A DNA stretch of 64,000 nucleotides from Lytechinus pictus (lineage: Eukaryota): the NCBI RefSeq assembly GCF_037042905.1, contig NC_087251.1:22322001-22386000 (forward strand), given 5' to 3'. Shown piece by piece: positions 22,801-31,800 of this stretch; within the stretch, counting starts at the first letter, position 1; each line of letters opens with the position of its first letter. The notes under the pieces are model-generated. The model worked only from the letters and a program-made list of their open reading frames with translations, did no database searches and was not told the origin of the DNA. Made by a program: the position numbers and the translations under genes.

Positions 22801-25800
22801 ATAAAAGCACAATGATGGAGGTCCGGCGATAAGCCATCAGATAAAGTATTCACAATTTTGAAATTTTGACCCTGTGACGTCACATGCGAGCACCTACCCC
22901 ATATGTCTTAAATCTAATCGATTCCCATTTTTTATTGAGTAAAAACACTTTATACAATCTGGCTTACCAGTTTACTCGCGTGCATTGTTTTAATAATTGA
23001 AATGTCTAAACTGAATATATAACATTTAATGGGATAGTCCACCCCAACAACAAGTTGATTTGAATAAAAAGAGATATTGTTGTCTACAGAACGCAGTAAG
23101 GTTCAAATGATAACTATTTCCTTTTAGGTTTTATTATATTTTTGCAGATTTGACAAGGAAAAAATTAATAAATTACTATAGCTTAAACGAAAATGGCAAT
23201 TGAAATTCTGGGAGGGGTCAATCCTTGTTTCGAAGTATAATGAGAAGAAAATGGAAATATGACTTCTTATAACAAAATACAAAAAAAAGCAAATAGTGAT
23301 ATTTAGTTTTGTGAAATTAAGCAAAGATTTTAGATACCATAACTGTCTTATTTTGCATCTGATTTTAGGTCAAGTCCACCTCAGAAAAATGTTGATTTGA
23401 ATCAATAGAGAAAAATTAGACAAACACAATGCTGAAAATTCCATCAAAATCGGATGTAAAATAAGAAAGTTATGACATTTCAAAGTTTCGTTTATTTTTA
23501 ACAAAATAGTTATATGAATGAGCCAGTTAGAGAGTCGATGATGCCACTCACCCACAATTTCTTTTGTTTTTTATTATTTGAATTATACAATATATCAATT
23601 TTTACGAATTTGATGATTAGGACCTACTTGCCTGAACCACAAAATGTTAAAATAATGGAATTCCATGTGTTCAGGGAGGAATGAAACTTAATTTCACATG
23701 ACAATGACGAGAAAATCAAAATATTTCATATAATAAAATACAAAAAAAAAATAGTGAGTGAGTGATGTCATCAGTTCCCTCATTTGCATACCGACCGAGA
23801 TGTGCATATAACTATTTTGTGAAATGAAGCGAAACTTTAAAATGTAATAACTTTCTTATTTTACATCCGATTTTGATGAATTTTTCAGTGTTATGCTTGT
23901 TGAATTTTTCTCTTTTTATTTAAATCAAGTTTTTGTTGGGGTGGACTTGTTTAACAGTGTGAAGTTTGGTTATTTTTCTCTAATTTAAATTAGATATTTG
24001 CTAGGGAGACTATTCCTTGAATATTTTCTGTTTGAAAAATTGAATACTGTTATAAGCATTGATTGTTTAAACATTTTTATCTCTTAGCAGTAATCGATCG
24101 GTTGTAGTAATTAGTTTCTGTGGAAATCTATACATGTTTTTTTATTTCTGTTTTACTTTGTTATGTTTCTGATGATAATTTGTATAGAAATCGATGTTGT
24201 ATGTGTCTGACATTTTGAAAAGAAATCCATACGTGTTATTAAATTTTGTTTACCGTGTAATTAACGGATGACAATTTTGCTTGGTTTTGTTTTACTGACT
24301 TGTCTGATGATTAATGCAAAAGCAAATAATTAATTTTCTGAGAATTCTGATGGATTAAAAAAAAATCAAATTATATGATTATAAGGGCGTTGTCGGCATA
24401 TGACGTCACCAAATGAGAACTTGATAGAACCATAATTTCGTTATTCTTATATGGATTTCGGCCAAAAGTTCTTTGGGATGTTTCCTTGGCTTTCGTTTAG
24501 GAAAGCAAACTTGACGTCATAGTGACATTTGGCTTTAACTCCCAATTACCCTTTATACTGTGTACTAAGAAATCGTTAATTTGTTCTTTGTAGATTACAG
24601 GAGGACATTCTCTTCATTTTATGACAGTAATGGTGATGGCTTTATCACGAGCGAAGAGTTGGGTGCTGCGATGGAACAATGTGGATGTGGATTTACTGAG
24701 GAGGAAATTAAAGAAATGGTAACAAAAGCCGATACGACCAGTAAGTCCATAACGAAGATTTATATCAGGAATCGCAAACTGAACAATGAGTGAAACTGTA
24801 ACTCTTCCAGACACCCCTTCACGATCATATGATTTTGACATGCATACTATGATTATCAGTGGCGTACCGTGGGTCACGGCATGGGGGGGGGGGGCACCAG
24901 CAAAAATTTCGAGTCACTTAGGGGCGCGCGAAGCGCGCTCAATTGCCAGGTATTACTGACCTAATAGAGACATTTTAAGGACATGCAGTGCCGTTAAAAG
25001 GATATGTATCTCACTGATTAAATAATGCGAGCGCGAAGCGCGAGCTGAAATCTTTTGATATTCAGACCTAAAAAGGGACATCATAAGCATATTTTTTTGT
25101 TTTCATGATACGTAACTGTCTAGCTAAACAAACAATGCGAGCGAGAAGTGCGAGCTGAAAATTTTGTATATATTGACCCCAAACAGGGACATTTTAAGGA
25201 CTATATTTTCGGAATCCATTAAGAGTATACATATCTCAGCATAGTCATCTAATGCTAGTGCCATCCTTTGCTGATTTTGTTAGAATTACATCTTAACACA
25301 TTTAGCACTTCAAGTTTTTGTAGTCATTGTAATCATGATTATCATACGCATCTCACTAATCAATTACTGCGAGCTGAAATTTTAGGAAATTCAGACCTGA
25401 TGAGGTGCATTCTAAGGCTTGTTTGTAGGAATTCACTAAGACCGTACGTATTTCACTAACCAAATGATGCGAGCGCGAAGCGCCAGCTGAATTCTTTGTA
25501 TATATTGACCCCAAACATGGATATTTTAAGGACTGTTTTTAAGGAATCCATTAAGAGTATCTCACAATAGTCATCTAATGCGAGTGCCAAGCACTTTCTG
25601 ATTTTGTTACAAACACATCTAAACACATGAAGCACTTTTTGTTGTCATAGTTATACGCATCTCACTATTCAAATACTGCGAGCGCGAAGCGCGAGCTGAA
25701 AATTTAGGAAATTCAGACCTGAAGAGGGGTAAAACCTACTTCTACTGTTCTGCTCTTTCCACAGCTGTGAACATTGCTGATTCAGCATCTACTGGATAAA

Positions 25801-28800
25801 GACAAACGGTACAAGAACCCATTTATGTTCACAGCTTTTGTGTTCAAACCTGCCTAGCTACCACCATGCCTACCGTATCCTGCCCAATTCCAGGCTGCGA
25901 CTACGCCACGCCGGATCTGGATGCCTCTATTGTTGCTGCCCTGCTCACGACCCACTCCACAATTCATGCCTCTGCTGGGACAGGGTCTGCTGCCAAGATA
26001 GAGAAGGTCAAGAGGCCCACCATAGTTGCAGCCGGTACAAGCGAGGACTGGGCTTACTTCACTTCTCGATGGTCCGATTATGTGGAGAGTACCAAGATAC
26101 CAAGGACAAGGACAAGGACGTGCAACTCCTTGAATGCTGCGATGAGCCTCTTCGCAAGGACCTTACAAGATCCTCTGGCGTCAGCCTCACCACCAAGTCT
26201 GAAGCAGAGGTGCTGGCGGCAATCAAGAGGCTCGCTGTGCGTGAGGAAAATACCATGGTAGCTCGAGTGGCGCTACATAACATGCGCCAGGACCGGGATG
26301 AGACAGTCCGCAGCTTCGGGGCCCGCTTACGTGGTCAAGCAGGGATCTGTAAGTTCATCATTAAGTGCCCTGGTTGCTCTATGGATGTCAACTACACTGA
26401 TGAGATACTGCGGGATGCCCTGACCAGGGGAATCGCTGACCCCGAGATTCAGCTCGACCTCTTGGGGGACAAGAACCAGAAGATGTCTTCCAGTTCATCG
26501 AGGCGAAGGAGGCTGGCAAGCGTTCTGCTTCATCCCTCCTGCACTCTCACGTCGTAAACTCCGCTAGCAGCTCATATCGGAAAACCAAGCAAATGCACCT
26601 CAAGGATGGCCAAGACTTGTGTAACTACTGTGGCAAGAAGGGACATGGACGGGGTGCCCCTGCTCACGTCCGTAAGACACAATGTGATGCCTATGGACAC
26701 AAATGCAGGCACTGTGATAGATTCCACCACATGGAGAACGTATGCCGAAGCAGGGACAAACCAAAACGTCTCCCTCCGGTGACCCCTGAGGGACAGGAGA
26801 ATGCTCTATTTGACTCCTTTTGCTCTGTTCATGGCTATGATCACTCATGCGGAGGCCATGGCATTCCCCTTGATCATCACGTTTATGATAGCCTTAACCA
26901 AGCATGGATCAGAAGGAAGTCTTCCCCGCAACCCTTTGTAGATGTGACTGCTCTGGTTGTCCCTGATGACTACGAAGCTCTTGGATTTCGGCTCTCCTCC
27001 CCTACGATGCCTCAATCTACCCCTGCTATGGCTGACACTGGGTGCCAGAGCTGCTTGGCCGGCATGAAGATAGTTCGCCGCCTTGGATTACGTCAACGGG
27101 ACCTCATCCCTGTTAGTATGAAGATGCGGACTGCCACTAAAGGGGGCGTCAGGATTCTTGGGGCCATTCCATTGTGTCTGTCTGGCACGGGTGCTCAAGG
27201 CCGTACCGTCTGGACGAGACAGCTTACCTACGTCACAGACAGTTCTGATCAGCTCTTCCTCAGCCGGGAAGCCTGTGTTGGCCTTGGAATCATCTCAGAT
27301 AGTTTCCCACAACTGGGTGCGACACGAGACCCGCCCCTGTCGGACACGGCTGCAGTCCTTGAGGGGCCTCATACAAGACGTGCCTGCCACTGCCCTCAAC
27401 GTAGATTGCCCCCACCGCCTCCCACCTCACTACCTTTCCCGGCAACTGAGGACAACCGTGCCAAGCTCCAGCAGTACCTCCTTGATTATTACAAGAGTAG
27501 TACGTTCAACACTTGCGAACACCAACCACTGCCCCTGATGGATGGCCCTCCCATTAAACTGATGGTGGACCCCGATGCAGAGCCTATCGTACATCACACC
27601 CCCGTGCCTGTACCACTCCACTGGCGGGATGCAGTCAAGGCAGCATTAGATCACGATGTTCAGCTGGGTGTGCTTGAACCTGTACCTGTTGGTGAGCCTG
27701 TCACTTGGTGCCATAGGATGGTTGTGTGTGCCAAGAAGAATGGCAAACCGAGAAGGACTGTCGACTTCCAGGCCCTCAATGCTCATGCAACCCGCGAGAC
27801 ACACCACACTCAATCCCCTTTTCTCCAAGCGAGGTCAGTTCCACACGGCAAGAAGAAGACTGTCTGTGATGCTTGGAATGGCTACCACAGTGTACCCATC
27901 TGCCAGGAAGATCGCCATCTCACAACATTCATCACACCCTGGGGTAGATACCGCTACAAAACCGCGTCTCAGGGATACATCGCTTCTGGTGACGGCTACA
28001 CCAGGCGATACGACGAGATTGTATCAGCCATCCCATACAAGACAAAGTGTGTTGATGACGTCTTACTCTGGGCGGACACATTAGCTGACAGCTTCTTCCA
28101 AGCAGTCGAATGGCTAGACATCTGTGGTAGGAAAGGGATCATCCTCAACCCTACCAAATTCACACTTGGCGCAGATGTTGTCGAATTCGCAGGATTTGAA
28201 ATCACTACTGACAATGTCCGGCCATGCCAGAAATACCTGCAGGCGATCCTTGATTTTCCAGCACCGTCTAATATCACTGATGTGCGGTCATGGTTTGGGC
28301 TTGTCAACCAAGTATCGTATACCTTCAGCATGACAGAGAAGATGTTACCATTTCGTCAGCTCCTGAAGCCCAGTACGCCATTTGTGTGGACTACTGCCCT
28401 CCAGCGTGCCTTTGAAGACTCCAAGGCTGTTATTGCCGGCGAGATCGAAGATGGCGTGAGGATATTTGACCCCAGAAAGCCGACCTGCCTGGCAACGGAC
28501 TGGTCTAAGGATGGCATTGGCTTTTGGCTTCTGCAGAAACACTGCACCTGCGATGGCACTATCCCCTTCTGCTGTGTCACAGGTTGGAAGGTAACACTTG
28601 TAGGGAGTCGGTTTACTCATGCTGCTGAATCCCGCTACGCCCCAGTGGAAGGCGAGGCTCTAGCAGTAGCGGACGCCCTTGACAAGGCACGATACTTCGT
28701 CTTGGGATGCGAGGATCTCATCATTGCCGTGGACCACAAGCCACTACTCAAGATTTTCGGCGATAGGGCCTTGGAGGGGATCCCTAATCCCCGCTTGAGG

Positions 28801-31800
28801 AATCTAAAGGAGAAGACACTGCGGTACAAGTTCAGAATGTTCCATGTCCCTGGCGTCCATCACCGAGCTACAGATTGCCTCTCTCGCCACCCTACAGGCA
28901 AGGCAGAGAAATTACACCTCCCAGATGACGTAGCCATGGTTGGTGTCATGCGCCTGTCATTTCTGCACTCACCAACGCTAATGGGGGGCCTTCGGACCTC
29001 GGACCCTTACACTGATTCTGTTGAAGTCTGCACACTATCCTCTGCCATGTGTGCCTTGGACTCTATTCACCTCAAATCAGTTACATGGGATAGAGTACGT
29101 TCTGCGACAGCGAGTGATGACAACATGCAGACCCTCCTTGAACTCATCGAGTCTGGCTTGCCTGCCCATCGCCATGCATTTCCCCACCCACTGCGTGAAT
29201 ACTTCCAGTTTCGCGATGGACTTTCTTCGGTTGATGGAGTTATCCTCTTCAATGATCGTGTACTCATTCCTCCTTCCCTCCGGGATGAAATCTTGACCCA
29301 CCTGCATGCTGCTCACCAAGGGGTTACCTCGATGATTGCTCGTGCTGACGCTTCTGTCTTCTGGCCTGGCATCACCCCCGCGATCAGAGCCCTACGTGTA
29401 ACCGGATAGCCCCATCCAATCCCAGTGCACCGCCGGCTCCCCTAATCTCGCCGGCCTTCCCCTTTCAGTGTATCTGTGCAGACTATTTTCATTACAAAGG
29501 ATGCAACTATTTGGTCATAGTGGACAGGTACTCGAACTGGCCAATCGTCGAACGGTCTGCACAGGGGGCGAATGGACTCATCACATGTCTCCGTCGTGTC
29601 TTCGCTACCTTCGGTATTCCCGACGAGCTGGCTTCTGATGGTGGCCCTGAGTTCACAGCGGTAGCTTCGCGTTGTTTCCCTTCGGATTGGGGCATCCATC
29701 ATCGTCTTGCCTCTGTTGCATTTCCCCACAGCAACTGTCGAGCTGAGGTTGCTGTGAAGACCATCAAGCGCCTTATCATGAGCAACACGGGCACTACTGG
29801 TTCCCTTGATACGGATCACTTTCAACGGGCGATACTTCAGTATTGCAACACCCCAGACAGGGACACGAAGCTATCCCCAGCCATGTGTGTCTTTGGCCAC
29901 CCGATCCAGGACTTTATTCCTATTGCCCCTGGCAAATACAAGCCACACGACACCTGGTGCGAGACCCTACAGGCAAGGGAGGAGGCCCTTCGCAACCGTC
30001 ACATGAAGGGAGCAGAACGCTGGAAGGAACACACCAAACGGCTTCTTCCACTTGTTGTTGGCAACCACGTCCGCATTCAGAACCAAACAGGGCCGCATCC
30101 TCTGAAATGGGACAAGACCGGCGTGGTGATTGAAGTACGGCAGCATGACCAATACCTGGTCCGTGTTGATGGATCCGGCCGGATCACACTAAGGAATCGC
30201 AAGTTTCTACAGCATTACACTCCGGTCCATCGGCCCTTGCCACCGAGGACAGTGGAAGATGACCTTCGTACCCGGAGTTACCCGAACACCCCATCTGCCC
30301 CGTTGATCTTGACACCTACTGCTGTGTCTGGCGGACTACCATCACCATCCCCGTGTCCGGTTGTGCCCACTCCGTCTCCTCGACAGCAACCTGGGCCCAT
30401 CACCGACGCCTGTCCATCAACGGTGACTGATCAACCTGATGGCTCCCACCAACCAGACCCTGTTGATGTCTTGTCATCCCCGGCCGGCCGTGCTGCCCCA
30501 GCTGCAGTTCCTCGTGAAGCTTCCCCTTCCGTGGCTGATCGACCGCCTCCTCCTACTCCATCACCTGAGGATGACGGCATCGCTCCTGCTGCCACACCAG
30601 CTCCTTCGCCCAGGCGATCTCTCCGTCAGGCCGGTAGACCTGCATGGCACTCGGATTACGAGATGTCTCTCTAGCGTGCTATGACATCCTTTTTGTGTTC
30701 TTGGAGTTTCTGTTTTACGCGTTTTTGTTCCTGCTGGTGTTCGTGTTTGCAGTTATTTGGACGTTACATTTTGCTTTTCTTCTACTTTTTGGAGTTAACT
30801 GTTTGGAGGAGCCTTTCAAAATAGACATTGCTTTTTGGACAGGAATTTCATCTTTGCCACTGACTCGTTTTTTATCACTTTTCGTCGTACCAAAGGCTTG
30901 GGGGGAGATAGAGGATTCTAAAACCTACTTCTACTGTTCTGCTCTTTCCACAGCTGTGAACATTGCTGATTCAGCATCTACTGGATAAAGACAAACGGTA
31001 CAAGAACCCATTTAGTATTCTAAGGCTTGTTTGCAGGAATTCACTAAGACCGTACGTATTTCACTAACCAAATGATGCGAGAGCGATGCGCGAGCTGAAA
31101 ATTTTTTATATTGAGATAAGAAAAATTTACATTATAAGGACTGATTTTAGGGATTCATGAAGAGCAGACATCTCACTAAACTAATGAGAACGTTAGCACG
31201 GACATGAAATGTTTTACATTAAGACATTAAAATAGGGCAATCACTTTTAGTCAAGAAAAAGAAGCAAATGTCACTACACTGAAACAATAATAATTCGAAT
31301 TGCGAGGAAATATATTTGGTGTACAGTATATTGAATTGAAAACGGGAGGTTTTAGTACAACAGGATTATATATCTTGTTAAACAGTCTATGCGATCACCA
31401 GGAACAACAAAGACATAGGCCCGCTTGGATGGGGAAAATGGCAGCTTGTCGCAAGTGATGTGATTTGCGTCGAGAGCAGTTTTGAGCAGACCTGTACCAC
31501 CGGTGACGAATATAAGTGATAAGTAGACGGTAAAGTTGATTTATTTCGTCTTTTCTTGTTACGTCGTGTTTTTATTGTTACTATTCATACTCTATCAAAG
31601 ACGTTATCATGGATAATAACTCGCCCCTTCACAAGAAAATCAAGCGGAACACTGCACACGCAGACCTAGCGGTTCCTCTCCAAGGATCCCCCGATACTGC
31701 AGGCGCCGGCCATGGGCGTGAACCCCTAGCGAAGCGGGATATTCTCGCTCCATCTTCCAGCACTGCTGCGGAAGCCAATATAACGGCTGCCATTGACAAG

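What the first reader, a model, noticed from the sequence alone, without database searches (positions are those of the whole stretch)
25730..25836. Gypsy element whose primer-binding site pairs with its own LTR: candidate tRNA-independent self-priming
Seen: the 11 nt directly after the 5' LTR (TGTTCACAGCT, 25826-25836) do not start with the TGG expected for pairing to a tRNA CCA end. They are the exact reverse complement of AGCTGTGAACA inside the LTR (25763-25773; 12 bp counting A25825:T25774). That LTR segment begins about 33 bp after a TATA-like TAAAA at 25730, where a transcript start would be expected. The enclosed loop has a further hairpin, TGCTGA-T-TCAGCA. Established: fission-yeast Tf1 primes reverse transcription by annealing the first 11 nt of its mRNA to the PBS, and the same is proposed for Tf1/sushi-group chromoviruses. 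Inference: this element looks different (CVDD RT, two-knuckle gag, Pro-rich integrase tail with no chromodomain, Mag-like), so self-priming may have arisen independently in a marine invertebrate Gypsy lineage. I do not know of a description of this.
Basis: partly seen in the sequence, partly recalled or inferred. Interest (0 to 1): 0.85.

Follow-up and report, generated by a model that had tools for sequence, protein, structure and literature searches.

The report
Self-priming Gypsy retrotransposon of marine invertebrates
This jumping gene and its relatives from other marine animals carry, where DNA copying must begin, a short sequence that pairs with the element's own terminal repeat instead of a tRNA, so the group probably primes reverse transcription with its own RNA, as yeast Tf1 does.

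Summary
TGTTCACAGCT (25826-25836), directly after the 5' LTR, is the exact reverse complement of AGCTGTGAACA (25763-25773) inside the LTR, or 12 bp counting T25774:A25825.

It is not chance. A sister family in the same genome (about 82% identical Pol) has a different primer site that again matches its own LTR, with 5 of 11 positions changed on both sides. Across 28 distinct families (window, sister family, 26 from metagenome contigs, 45-74% protein identity) the 12-bp helix is 98.5% paired. Ten of 12 pairs show double changes, and the covariation score is 0.954 against 0.189 in shuffles (0 of 500).

Short non-autonomous derivatives keep only the LTR plus 10-14 nt at the 5' end. Two other Gypsy families in the genome have TG..CA LTRs and TGG primer sites.

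Tf1-type self-priming is therefore the best explanation (about 0.8). The transcript start and the RNase H cut were not shown; in 17 of 28 families the paired segment starts at the A of an initiator-like (T)CA(G)TT motif.

The clade has a CVDD reverse transcriptase, TA..TA termini, 5-bp target duplications and no chromodomain. I could not place it against reference clades, so an origin independent of Tf1/sushi is open. My searches found no description. Earlier notes of this scan report the same architecture in diatom Copia and a moss chromovirus.

The parts
25730..25825 (+). 5' LTR of this copy (96 nt). It lacks the first 10 nt (TAGAGGATTC) of the 106-bp family LTR.
   Evidence: Exact repeat with 30919-31014. 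Family LTR start from other copies with 5-bp target duplications. RNA-read loose ends show the uninterrupted host repeat reading ...GGGG|CATTCTAAGG.
25730..25734 (+). TATA-like TAAAA, 33 nt upstream of the paired segment (promoter role inferred).
   Evidence: A comparable motif at -23 to -33 occurs in 6 of 28 families only.
25763..25774 (+). Proposed self-primer: AGCTGTGAACA plus T25774. It begins at the A of CACAG, which resembles an initiator.
   Evidence: Exact complement of 25825-25836. Covariation. The arm starts at Y|A in 17 of 28 families.
25775..25787 (+). Small hairpin TGCTG-ATT-CAGCA stacked on the primer helix.
   Evidence: fold. Not seen as a conserved feature in the alignment fold.
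25795..25800 (+). GATAAA, a possible polyadenylation signal about 25 nt before the LTR end (inferred).
   Evidence: AATAAA or CAAATAG-type motifs occur at the same place in relatives.
25826..25836 (+). Primer-binding site TGTTCACAGCT, with no TGG start.
   Evidence: The conserved 5' block of short derivatives ends 10-14 nt after the LTR.
25866..30674 (+). gag-pol coding region (protease, CVDD reverse transcriptase, RNase H, integrase). It is broken into at least four frames in this copy.
   Evidence: ORFs 25866-26261, 26069-26557, 26593-29409 and 29778-30674. Pfam RVT_1, RT_RNaseH and Integrase_H2C2. Sister-family copies carry one 1587-aa ORF.
30892..30908 (+). Polypurine tract AAAGGCTTGGGGGGAGA, ending directly at the 3' LTR.
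   Evidence: GGGGGGAGA precedes the 3' LTR in nearly all relatives.
30909..31014 (+). 3' LTR, full length (106 bp, TAGAGG...CATTTA).

Best explanation
This is a Ty3/gypsy-type (Metaviridae) LTR retrotransposon that starts reverse transcription without a tRNA. A segment of its own RNA inside the LTR (25763-25773) folds back onto the 11 nt that directly follow the LTR (25826-25836). That segment probably lies at or next to the RNA 5' end. The element's RNase H is inferred to cut the RNA just 3' of the duplex, so the short 5' RNA piece becomes the primer. Minus-strand DNA would then start opposite A25825, which is exactly the last LTR base. This is the Tf1 mechanism, and it appears to be a property of the whole clade. 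Shown here: the complementarity, its exact position at the LTR end, and its maintenance by double changes. Inferred: the transcript start, the cleavage, and whether pairing is in cis or between two RNAs.
For: 1; a 12-bp helix lies exactly at the LTR/internal boundary, and there is no TGG anywhere between the LTR and the gag ATG.
2. One search examined the 21 own-genome copies that reach past the LTR end. Eleven are unchanged. L017/L026 carries T>A in both LTRs and A>T in the primer site, a compensatory change. L008 and L016 differ only by G.U pairs. Five have one mismatch, one has a mismatch plus a G.U, and one is degenerate.
3. One search, sister family B (Pol about 82% identical): its primer site TGAACACGGTC is the reverse complement of GACCGTGTTCA in its own 142-bp LTR. 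Five of 11 positions differ from family A on both sides. The script found this in 8 of 11 loci with LTR pairs. L037 shows it by eye, L033 has one mismatch, and L045 was read on the wrong strand.
4; 40 of 53 evaluable metagenome loci have a perfect inverted repeat of 11-17 bp whose 3' arm starts at the last LTR base. The maximum over 20 shuffles per locus was 8-13.
5; 21 of 28 loci with two LTRs have a complement of 10 nt or more at the junction, against 12 of 5600 random internal positions.
6. Searches, on 28 families: 98.5% of cells are paired and 10 of 12 pairs have changes on both sides (125 cells). The covariation score is 0.954, against 0.189 in shuffles (0 of 500) and 0.07-0.13 when the partner is slid. 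RNAalifold predicts the same 12 pairs on its own.
7; short LTR-primer site-3'UTR-polypurine tract-LTR derivatives diverge 10-14 nt after the LTR, which marks the 3' border of the functional site.
8. Two families in one genome have different primer sites, each matching its own LTR. That excludes a shared host primer.
9; two other Gypsy families of this genome have TGG primer sites and no complement to their own LTR.
10; the paired segment starts at Y|A in 17 of 28 families, mostly within TCAGTT. I recall that motif as the metazoan initiator consensus.
11. The Tf1 mechanism as described in print: PMC7175516 and PMC4600332 (passages).
Against: No transcript start, cleavage product or strong-stop cDNA was observed. 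Three RNA runs sampled at about 6% gave 54-56 reads each, and none lay beyond 25829.

The 28 rows of the covariation test were chosen as the longest perfect inverted repeat, which favours pairing. The position is, however, fixed by LTR ends that were defined independently.

Thirteen of 53 loci did not show a repeat of 11 bp or more. One search shows most are cut contigs, non-LTR upstream sequence or mutated copies, but L078 is simply degenerate.

In 11 of 28 families the arm does not start at Y|A.

The full host tRNA set was not compared. Only two pattern searches were run.
Confidence: 0.8

Rival explanations
1. The LTR-primer site helix is a structural RNA element, for example for packaging, dimerisation or presenting the primer site, like the U5-leader stems of retroviruses. 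In this reading the true primer is some other RNA.
For: Retroviral leaders have conserved stems around the primer site (recalled). Covariation proves pairing, not priming. No cleavage or cDNA data exist for these elements.
Against: The 3' arm begins exactly at the base after which minus-strand synthesis must start, in all 28 families. Nothing else is conserved between the LTR and gag in the short derivatives. There is no TGG or other shared motif to bind a common primer. The sites differ between two families in the same genome.
Confidence: 0.12
2. The primer site binds a host tRNA, a tRNA half or an internal tRNA fragment, as in copia or Ty5, and the match to the LTR is incidental.
For: Half-tRNA priming exists in Ty1/copia lineages (PMC6317226 passage). 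The complete host tRNA set could not be fetched.
Against: The site does not start with TGG, so a CCA end cannot pair. At least 26 different primer-site sequences each match their own LTR, whereas tRNAs are conserved. In the own genome, AGCTGTGAACA followed within 50 nt by a T-arm-like motif occurs once, and ARAGORN finds no tRNA there. With an A-box-like motif upstream there are 4 hits against 1 in the control; one is an LTR and none looks like a tRNA by eye.
Confidence: 0.03
3. The complementarity in the window is a chance match or an assembly artefact.
For: None beyond the short length (11-12 bp).
Against: About 2e-5 is expected by chance. The match recurs in 21 own-genome copies, in the sister family and in contigs from many independent assemblies.
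Confidence: 0.01

Closest known systems
Tf1, Tf2 (Schizosaccharomyces pombe) and Tj1 (S. japonicus): experimentally self-primed Ty3/gypsy elements
   Same: The primer site directly after the 5' LTR is complementary to an LTR segment at the RNA 5' end. In Tf1 this is the first 11 bases, cut by RNase H between bases 11 and 12 (PMC7175516 passage; PMC4600332 passages). Here the duplex is 11-17 bp, at the same place. A single gag-pol ORF is shared too (Tf1's single ORF is recalled, not seen in a call).
   Different: The hosts here are marine invertebrates. There is no chromodomain. The RT motif is CVDD. LTRs are 106-334 bp with TA..TA termini, whereas TG..CA for Tf1 is recalled, not checked. The duplex always includes the last LTR base. 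Nothing has been tested experimentally.
Tf1/sushi-group chromoviruses of fungi and vertebrates, and the Tcn1 clade of mosses (predicted self-priming)
   Same: [quoted passage not shown]
   Different: Those are chromodomain-bearing chromoviruses. Membership of this clade could not be tested by phylogeny, and the chromodomain hallmark is absent.
Ty1/copia TAR lineage (Houba, Osr-1) of plants; diatom Copia families noted earlier in this scan
   Same: Self-priming predicted from primer site-LTR complementarity outside Tf1/sushi (PMC6317226 passage; scan notes, unchecked).
   Different: A different superfamily (integrase before RT) and different hosts.
Steamer-like / SURL-type (Mag lineage, C-clade) elements of bivalves and sea urchins
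   Same: Marine invertebrate hosts, a compact element of about 5 kb, a single gag-pol ORF, two zinc knuckles, short LTRs, and apparent cross-phylum spread (cross-phylum spread of Steamer-like elements is recalled; the passages read are).
   Different: Steamer-like LTRs start TGTAACA and end ..AAACA, and the 12-nt primer site TGGTGTCAGAAG matches tRNA-Leu (PMC8905726 passage). The mussel element MchSLE1 has a YxDD RT and a tRNA-Asn site (PMC11046912 passages). A family with those hallmarks in this genome (L128) is only about 31% identical to the window's RT-RNase H.
Troyka (LTR retrotransposons with non-canonical termini)
   Same: An invertebrate LTR-element lineage that departs from TG..CA termini.
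   Different: Troyka has CG..CG termini and 3-bp target duplications (PMC12440569, abstract and sections 5 and 14). Here the termini are TA..TA and the duplications 5 bp.

Membership tests
Self-primed (Tf1-type) LTR retrotransposons (functional class) | No tRNA-type primer site (no TGG start) after the 5' LTR | tested here: met
   There is no TGG between 25826 and the gag ATG at 25866. In A3 25 of 28 sites begin TG, 2 TC and 1 TA; none begins TGG.
Self-primed (Tf1-type) LTR retrotransposons (functional class) | The sequence directly after the LTR is complementary to a segment inside the LTR | tested here: met
   40 of 53; 21 of 28 against 12 of 5600.
Self-primed (Tf1-type) LTR retrotransposons (functional class) | Pairing kept among relatives by compensatory changes | tested here: met
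   10 of 12 pairs with double changes, covariation score 0.954 against 0.189. L017.
Self-primed (Tf1-type) LTR retrotransposons (functional class) | The complementary segment is the 5' end of the element's mRNA | tested here: inconclusive
   Initiator-like Y|A at the arm start in 17 of 28 families. The RNA reads gave no coverage of the 5' region.
Self-primed (Tf1-type) LTR retrotransposons (functional class) | RNase H cleavage of the RNA duplex releases the primer | not testable with these tools
   This needs biochemistry or sequencing of cDNA intermediates.
Tf1/sushi clade (chromoviruses) | Chromodomain at the integrase C-terminus | tested here: not met
   Pfam at E up to 10 on the C-terminal 297 aa gives no Chromo and no SH3_Tf2-1. 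The whole protein gives only RVT_1, RNase H, H2C2 and rve.
Tf1/sushi clade (chromoviruses) | RT/RNase H/integrase phylogeny groups it with Tf1, sushi-ichi and similar | not testable with these tools
   No reference sequences could be obtained. Named hits are all 'uncharacterized'. The Atlas and PDB searches only confirm Metaviridae.
Metaviridae / Ty3-gypsy superfamily | Domain order protease-RT-RNase H-integrase, with RT closest to Ty3-type | tested here: met
   (domain order); the best solved relative is Ty3 Gag-Pol 7q5b, E 1.4e-41.
Steamer-like / Mag C-clade | LTR TGTAACA..AAACA with a tRNA-Leu primer site, TGGTGTCAGAAG (per PMC8905726) | tested here: not met
   The LTR is TAGAGG..CATTTA and the site is TGTTCACAGCT. 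L128, which carries those hallmarks, is about 31% identical.
Troyka | CG..CG termini and 3-bp target duplications | tested here: not met
   TA..TA termini and 5-bp duplications, e.g. ATTTC (L026), ATTAT (L024), ATATT (L053) and CTTAC (L057).

The most novel reading that the evidence does not exclude
A large and strongly conserved Metaviridae clade uses tRNA-independent self-priming throughout. Its marks are a CVDD RT, TA..TA LTR termini, a single ORF of about 1600 aa and no chromodomain. It occurs in echinoderms, molluscs, cnidarians and annelid-associated assemblies. The primer would be the very first bases of an initiator-driven transcript. In the boldest reading the clade acquired or kept this independently of the Tf1/sushi chromoviruses. 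Self-priming would then be a recurrent or ancestral solution among LTR elements and would be common in animals. A speculative consequence is that such elements would be invisible to primer-site-directed tRNA-fragment silencing.
Probability: 0.45. Interest if true: 0.65.

Novelty: new member of a known kind. Interest (0 to 1): 0.55.

Why it matters
Self-priming has been demonstrated only in fission-yeast elements and predicted for a few fungal, vertebrate, moss and plant lineages. Here a whole, very widespread invertebrate Gypsy clade shows the signature, with unusually clean covariation (28 different primer/site pairs). More than 2000 protein clusters match it, and the 120 best are 67-91% identical over RT to integrase.

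Three consequences follow. The mechanism is likely common in animals. It offers natural 'mutants' that define the length and position rules of the primer. Annotation pipelines that require a tRNA primer site will mislabel or discard these elements.

One further inference was not tested. Such elements would escape host repression that targets tRNA primer sites with 3' tRNA fragments. I saw that topic only as a search listing (bioRxiv 10.64898/2026.01.22.698655).

Tried and rejected
RNA evidence for the start site. One search listed no holder on record as RNA. I laid three raw-read RNA runs with the same species label plus one contig set. Each RNA run gave 54-56 reads, almost all on the flanking host repeat or the LTR. 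Depth was 0 in the 20 bins from 25829 to 26240, and no 'many molecules begin' place was reported. The start site therefore stays untested. A 63-nt contig spanning exactly 25763-25825 in X1 is explained by graph branch points: an LTR variant diverges after 25763 and the LTR ends at 25825. It is not a transcript start.

Host tRNA comparison.

Clade naming. PDB, ESM Atlas, two protein searches and cluster names gave only 'uncharacterized' or generic names. A text search for 'CVDD' with 'retrotransposon' found 0 papers. The original Tf1 papers and a review were not held.

TATA box as a general feature. It is present at -23 to -33 in only 6 of 28 families, so I rejected it as a clade feature.

A second small hairpin 5-10 nt before the LTR end. 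Mean best stem is 4.0 against 3.2 in shuffles, and RNAalifold does not predict it. It is suggestive only.

The first alignment, A2, mis-registered 5' arms of different length. I replaced it with the end-anchored A3.

Searching this scan's earlier notes by sequence and by genome found nothing.


Full report
THE OBSERVATION

One search shows TGTTCACAGCT at 25826-25836, directly after the 5' LTR, and AGCTGTGAACA at 25763-25773 inside it. They are exact reverse complements. T25774 also pairs with A25825, the last LTR base, which gives 12 bp. As RNA, 25763-25845 folds into the 12-bp helix with a stacked 5-bp, 3-nt-loop hairpin (-23.3 kcal/mol, z -2.77, 3 of 200 shuffles as good).

The exact LTR repeat in the window is 25730-25825 / 30919-31014. 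One correction is needed. In other copies the LTR is 106 bp, starts TAGAGGATTC 10 nt further upstream, and is flanked by 5-bp target duplications such as ATTTC in L026 and ATTAT in L024. The polypurine run GGGGGGAGA abuts the 3' LTR at 30900-30908.

The window's 5' LTR lacks those 10 nt. RNA-read loose ends from other copies of the flanking host repeat read ...GGGG|CATTCTAAGG across the empty site. The simplest reading is an ordinary insertion followed by a small deletion at the 5' junction. The coding region is broken into at least four frames, so this copy is not autonomous.

IS IT MORE THAN CHANCE?

The own genome is held and contains the family (41 places). I aligned the 21 places that reach past the LTR end. 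The other 20 stop at position 96-97; they are 3' or solo LTRs and cannot be tested. Results:
- 11 rows have the unchanged 12-bp pairing.
- L017 (the same locus as L026) has T>A in the primer segment of both LTRs and the matching A>T in the primer site. This is a clean compensatory change.
- L008 and L016 differ only by changes that give G.U pairs.
- 5 rows have one mismatch, 1 has a mismatch plus a G.U, and 1 (L019) is degenerate.

Nine of these copies belong to short or rearranged derivatives. Five were read in full, at 449, 590, 650, 1702 and 2326 bp. They keep the LTR, the primer site, about 200 nt of 3' UTR, the polypurine tract and the second LTR. Their similarity to the window ends 10-14 nt after the LTR. 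This works as a natural deletion map of the 3' border of the site.

THE SISTER FAMILY

A search of the genome with the window's RT-integrase found the window's family at 90-100% identity, then a sister family at about 81-84% with uninterrupted frames of about 1600 aa. After that comes a gap down to 30-32%. The sister family's LTRs are 142 bp. BLAST does not align them with the window's LTR, although the termini are alike (TAGAGGATT...TTATTTA).

Its primer site is TGAACACGGTC, the exact complement of GACCGTGTTCA at LTR positions 66-76. Relative to the window's family, 5 of 11 positions differ, and all five differ on both sides. The script found the pair in 8 of 11 loci with LTR pairs. L037 shows it by eye, L033 carries one uncompensated change, and L045 was read on the wrong strand. 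Two deleted derivatives (L040, L043) diverge right after a 12- or 13-nt site. Two families in one genome, each with a primer site tailored to its own LTR, rule out a shared host primer.

THE WIDER CLADE

The protein family is very large and conserved. One search found 2296 proteins at E <= 0.001 among 7999 scored candidates. The 120 listed are 67-91% identical over 841 aa. The few named ones come from Diadema antillarum, Mytilus edulis and Actinostola sp., or are evident host contigs filed under symbiont bins. One search adds Mytilus galloprovincialis and Elysia marginata. CVDD is invariant in a 20-sequence alignment.

A metagenome scan returned 80 loci at 45-74% identity (444 of 465 candidate stretches confirmed, best 80 kept). 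Wherever two LTRs define the boundary, the LTR starts TAG and ends ..TTTA or ..CTA, and it is preceded by GGGGGGAGA. The next 10-17 nt are the reverse complement of a segment inside the LTR.

Quantitatively:
- The gag start was matched in 60 of the 80 loci, and 53 of those have at least 150 nt upstream. In 40 of the 53, the longest perfect inverted repeat in the 420 nt upstream of gag is 11-17 bp, with its 3' arm starting at the last LTR base. The maximum over 20 shuffles per locus was 8-13.
- 21 of 28 loci with two BLAST-defined LTRs have an exact complement of 10 nt or more within 12 nt of the LTR end, against 12 of 5600 random internal positions.
- looked at the misses. Three are the same arms with one mutation (L054, L057, and L069 with a G.U). 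Two have the primer site, but the contig is cut before the LTR part (L050, L066). One is degenerate (L078). In seven the upstream sequence is not an LTR at all.

I then took one representative for each distinct arm, 28 families including the window and the sister family, cut from 12 nt of the 5' arm to 12 nt of the 3' arm. On this alignment:
- 98.5% of 336 cells are standard pairs.
- 10 of 12 pairs have changes on both sides, in 125 cells.
- The covariation score is 0.954, against 0.189 +/- 0.024 in shuffles (0 of 500) and 0.07-0.13 when the 3' partner is slid by 1-3 columns.
- RNAalifold, given no structure, predicts exactly these 12 pairs.

The caveat is that rows were picked by their longest perfect repeat, which favours pairing. 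The position is nevertheless anchored by independently defined LTR ends. The two innermost pairs never vary: the last LTR base A pairs with U, and the first primer-site base T pairs with A.

CONTROLS FROM THE SAME GENOME

Two of the nearest other Gypsy families, 31-32% identical in RT-RNase H, have AG..CA and TG..CA LTRs. Their primer sites begin TGGTGGCAGCG, which I recall as a tRNA-Leu type. Neither has even a 6-nt complement to its own LTR at the junction.

For the window's site, a genome pattern search for the 11-mer followed by a T-arm-like motif gave one hit, and ARAGORN finds no tRNA there. With an A-box-like motif upstream there were 4 hits against 1 in the control. One is an LTR, and none looks like a tRNA by eye.

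HOW IT MOST LIKELY WORKS

Minus-strand synthesis must start at the base next to the LTR end. The only conserved thing there is a sequence that pairs with the element's own LTR. That is the Tf1 arrangement. [quoted passage not shown]

Here the paired LTR segment begins at Y|A in 17 of 28 families, mostly within TCAGTT. In 6 more there is a CA within a few bases. From memory, TCAGTT is the metazoan initiator consensus. If so, the primer is the very 5' end of the RNA, as in Tf1.

An AATAAA-like motif (CAAATAG, AATAAA, or GATAAA at 25795-25800) sits about 20-30 nt before the LTR end. That would leave a very short U5. The start site, the poly(A) site and the cleavage are all inferred.

The L017/L026 pattern, with both LTRs and the primer site changed together, fits the replication scheme as I understand it. 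The site of the progeny is copied from the primer, so a change in the primer segment is carried into the site within a cycle or two.

COMPARISON WITH WHAT IS KNOWN

- Superfamily. Protease-RT-RNase H-integrase order and a best solved relative of Ty3 (E 1.4e-41) place the element in Metaviridae.
- Steamer-like. It is not a Steamer-like element, given different termini, a different primer site, CVDD instead of YxDD, and about 31% identity to a family with Steamer-like hallmarks in the same genome.
- Troyka. It is not Troyka.
- Chromoviruses. It lacks the chromodomain that marks them. That does not settle phylogeny, and I could not bring in reference sequences. Whether it is inside, beside or far from Tf1/sushi remains open.
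- Self-priming elsewhere. It is already predicted in print for the Copia TAR lineage and, within the wider Tf1/sushi group, for moss Tcn1 elements. Earlier unchecked notes of this scan report it in diatom Copia families and a moss chromovirus.

My full-text searches found no description of self-priming in an invertebrate Gypsy lineage. Subscription literature and Repbase reports were not searchable.

VERDICT

It is a new member, in fact a whole clade, of a known kind of priming mechanism. Its independence from Tf1/sushi and the exact RNA ends remain to be shown.

Noticed in passing
window 24880-25729 and 31015-31160: The element sits in an array of a host repeat of about 330 bp with the core GCGAGCGCGAAGCGCGAGCTGAAAATTT. 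The repeat is very abundant in the contig set X1 (summed word depth up to 16427) and is covered by RNA reads (depth up to about 30), far above the element itself.
   Followed up: no
window 25720-25730 and 31015-31020: The 5' LTR lacks the family's first 10 nt and there is no 5-bp target duplication. Reads from empty copies of the host repeat suggest a small deletion at the 5' junction after a normal insertion.
   Followed up: partly
L022, L023, L024, L026, L027 (own genome): These are miniature non-autonomous derivatives of 449-2326 bp. They keep only the LTR, the primer site, about 200 nt of 3' UTR, the polypurine tract and the second LTR, so they resemble TRIM elements, and they have 5-bp target duplications.
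   Followed up: partly
alignment A3, about 5-10 nt before the LTR end (window 25808-25819, GGT-ACAAGA-ACC): A short hairpin with a different sequence in each family (AGGG/CCCT, GCGC/GCGC, GAAGA/TCTTC, AGATC/GATCT) sits at a similar place next to the primer-site helix. This recalls the U5-IR stem-loop reported for Tf1 and retroviruses. Support is weak: mean stem 4.0 against 3.2 in shuffles, and RNAalifold does not predict it.
   Followed up: partly
LTRs of L093, L105, L106, L112, L115, L120, 20-45 nt upstream of the paired segment: Conserved GACCCyTTACC and GCGCATGC-type motifs lie upstream of the initiator-like start. From memory, GCGCATGC resembles an NRF1-type site. This suggests TATA-less promoters in most families.
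   Followed up: no
proteins P0002, P0012, P0041, P0075, P0011, P0082: RT to integrase is about 70% identical between copies from echinoderm, mollusc and cnidarian records, and some copies are filed under bacterial symbiont bins as apparent host contamination. That suggests either horizontal spread or unusually strong constraint.
   Followed up: no
end of Pol (window about 30610-30671; L034 ORF residues 1570-1587): After a variable Pro-rich tail, the very C-terminus carries a conserved RRSxR...PxWxxDY motif in the 20-sequence alignment. Its function is unknown.
   Followed up: no
window 24600-24740: An open stretch reads like an EF-hand, calmodulin-type exon (...[19 protein letters not shown]... 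read by eye). The element and the repeat array may therefore lie in an intron of a host gene.
   Followed up: no
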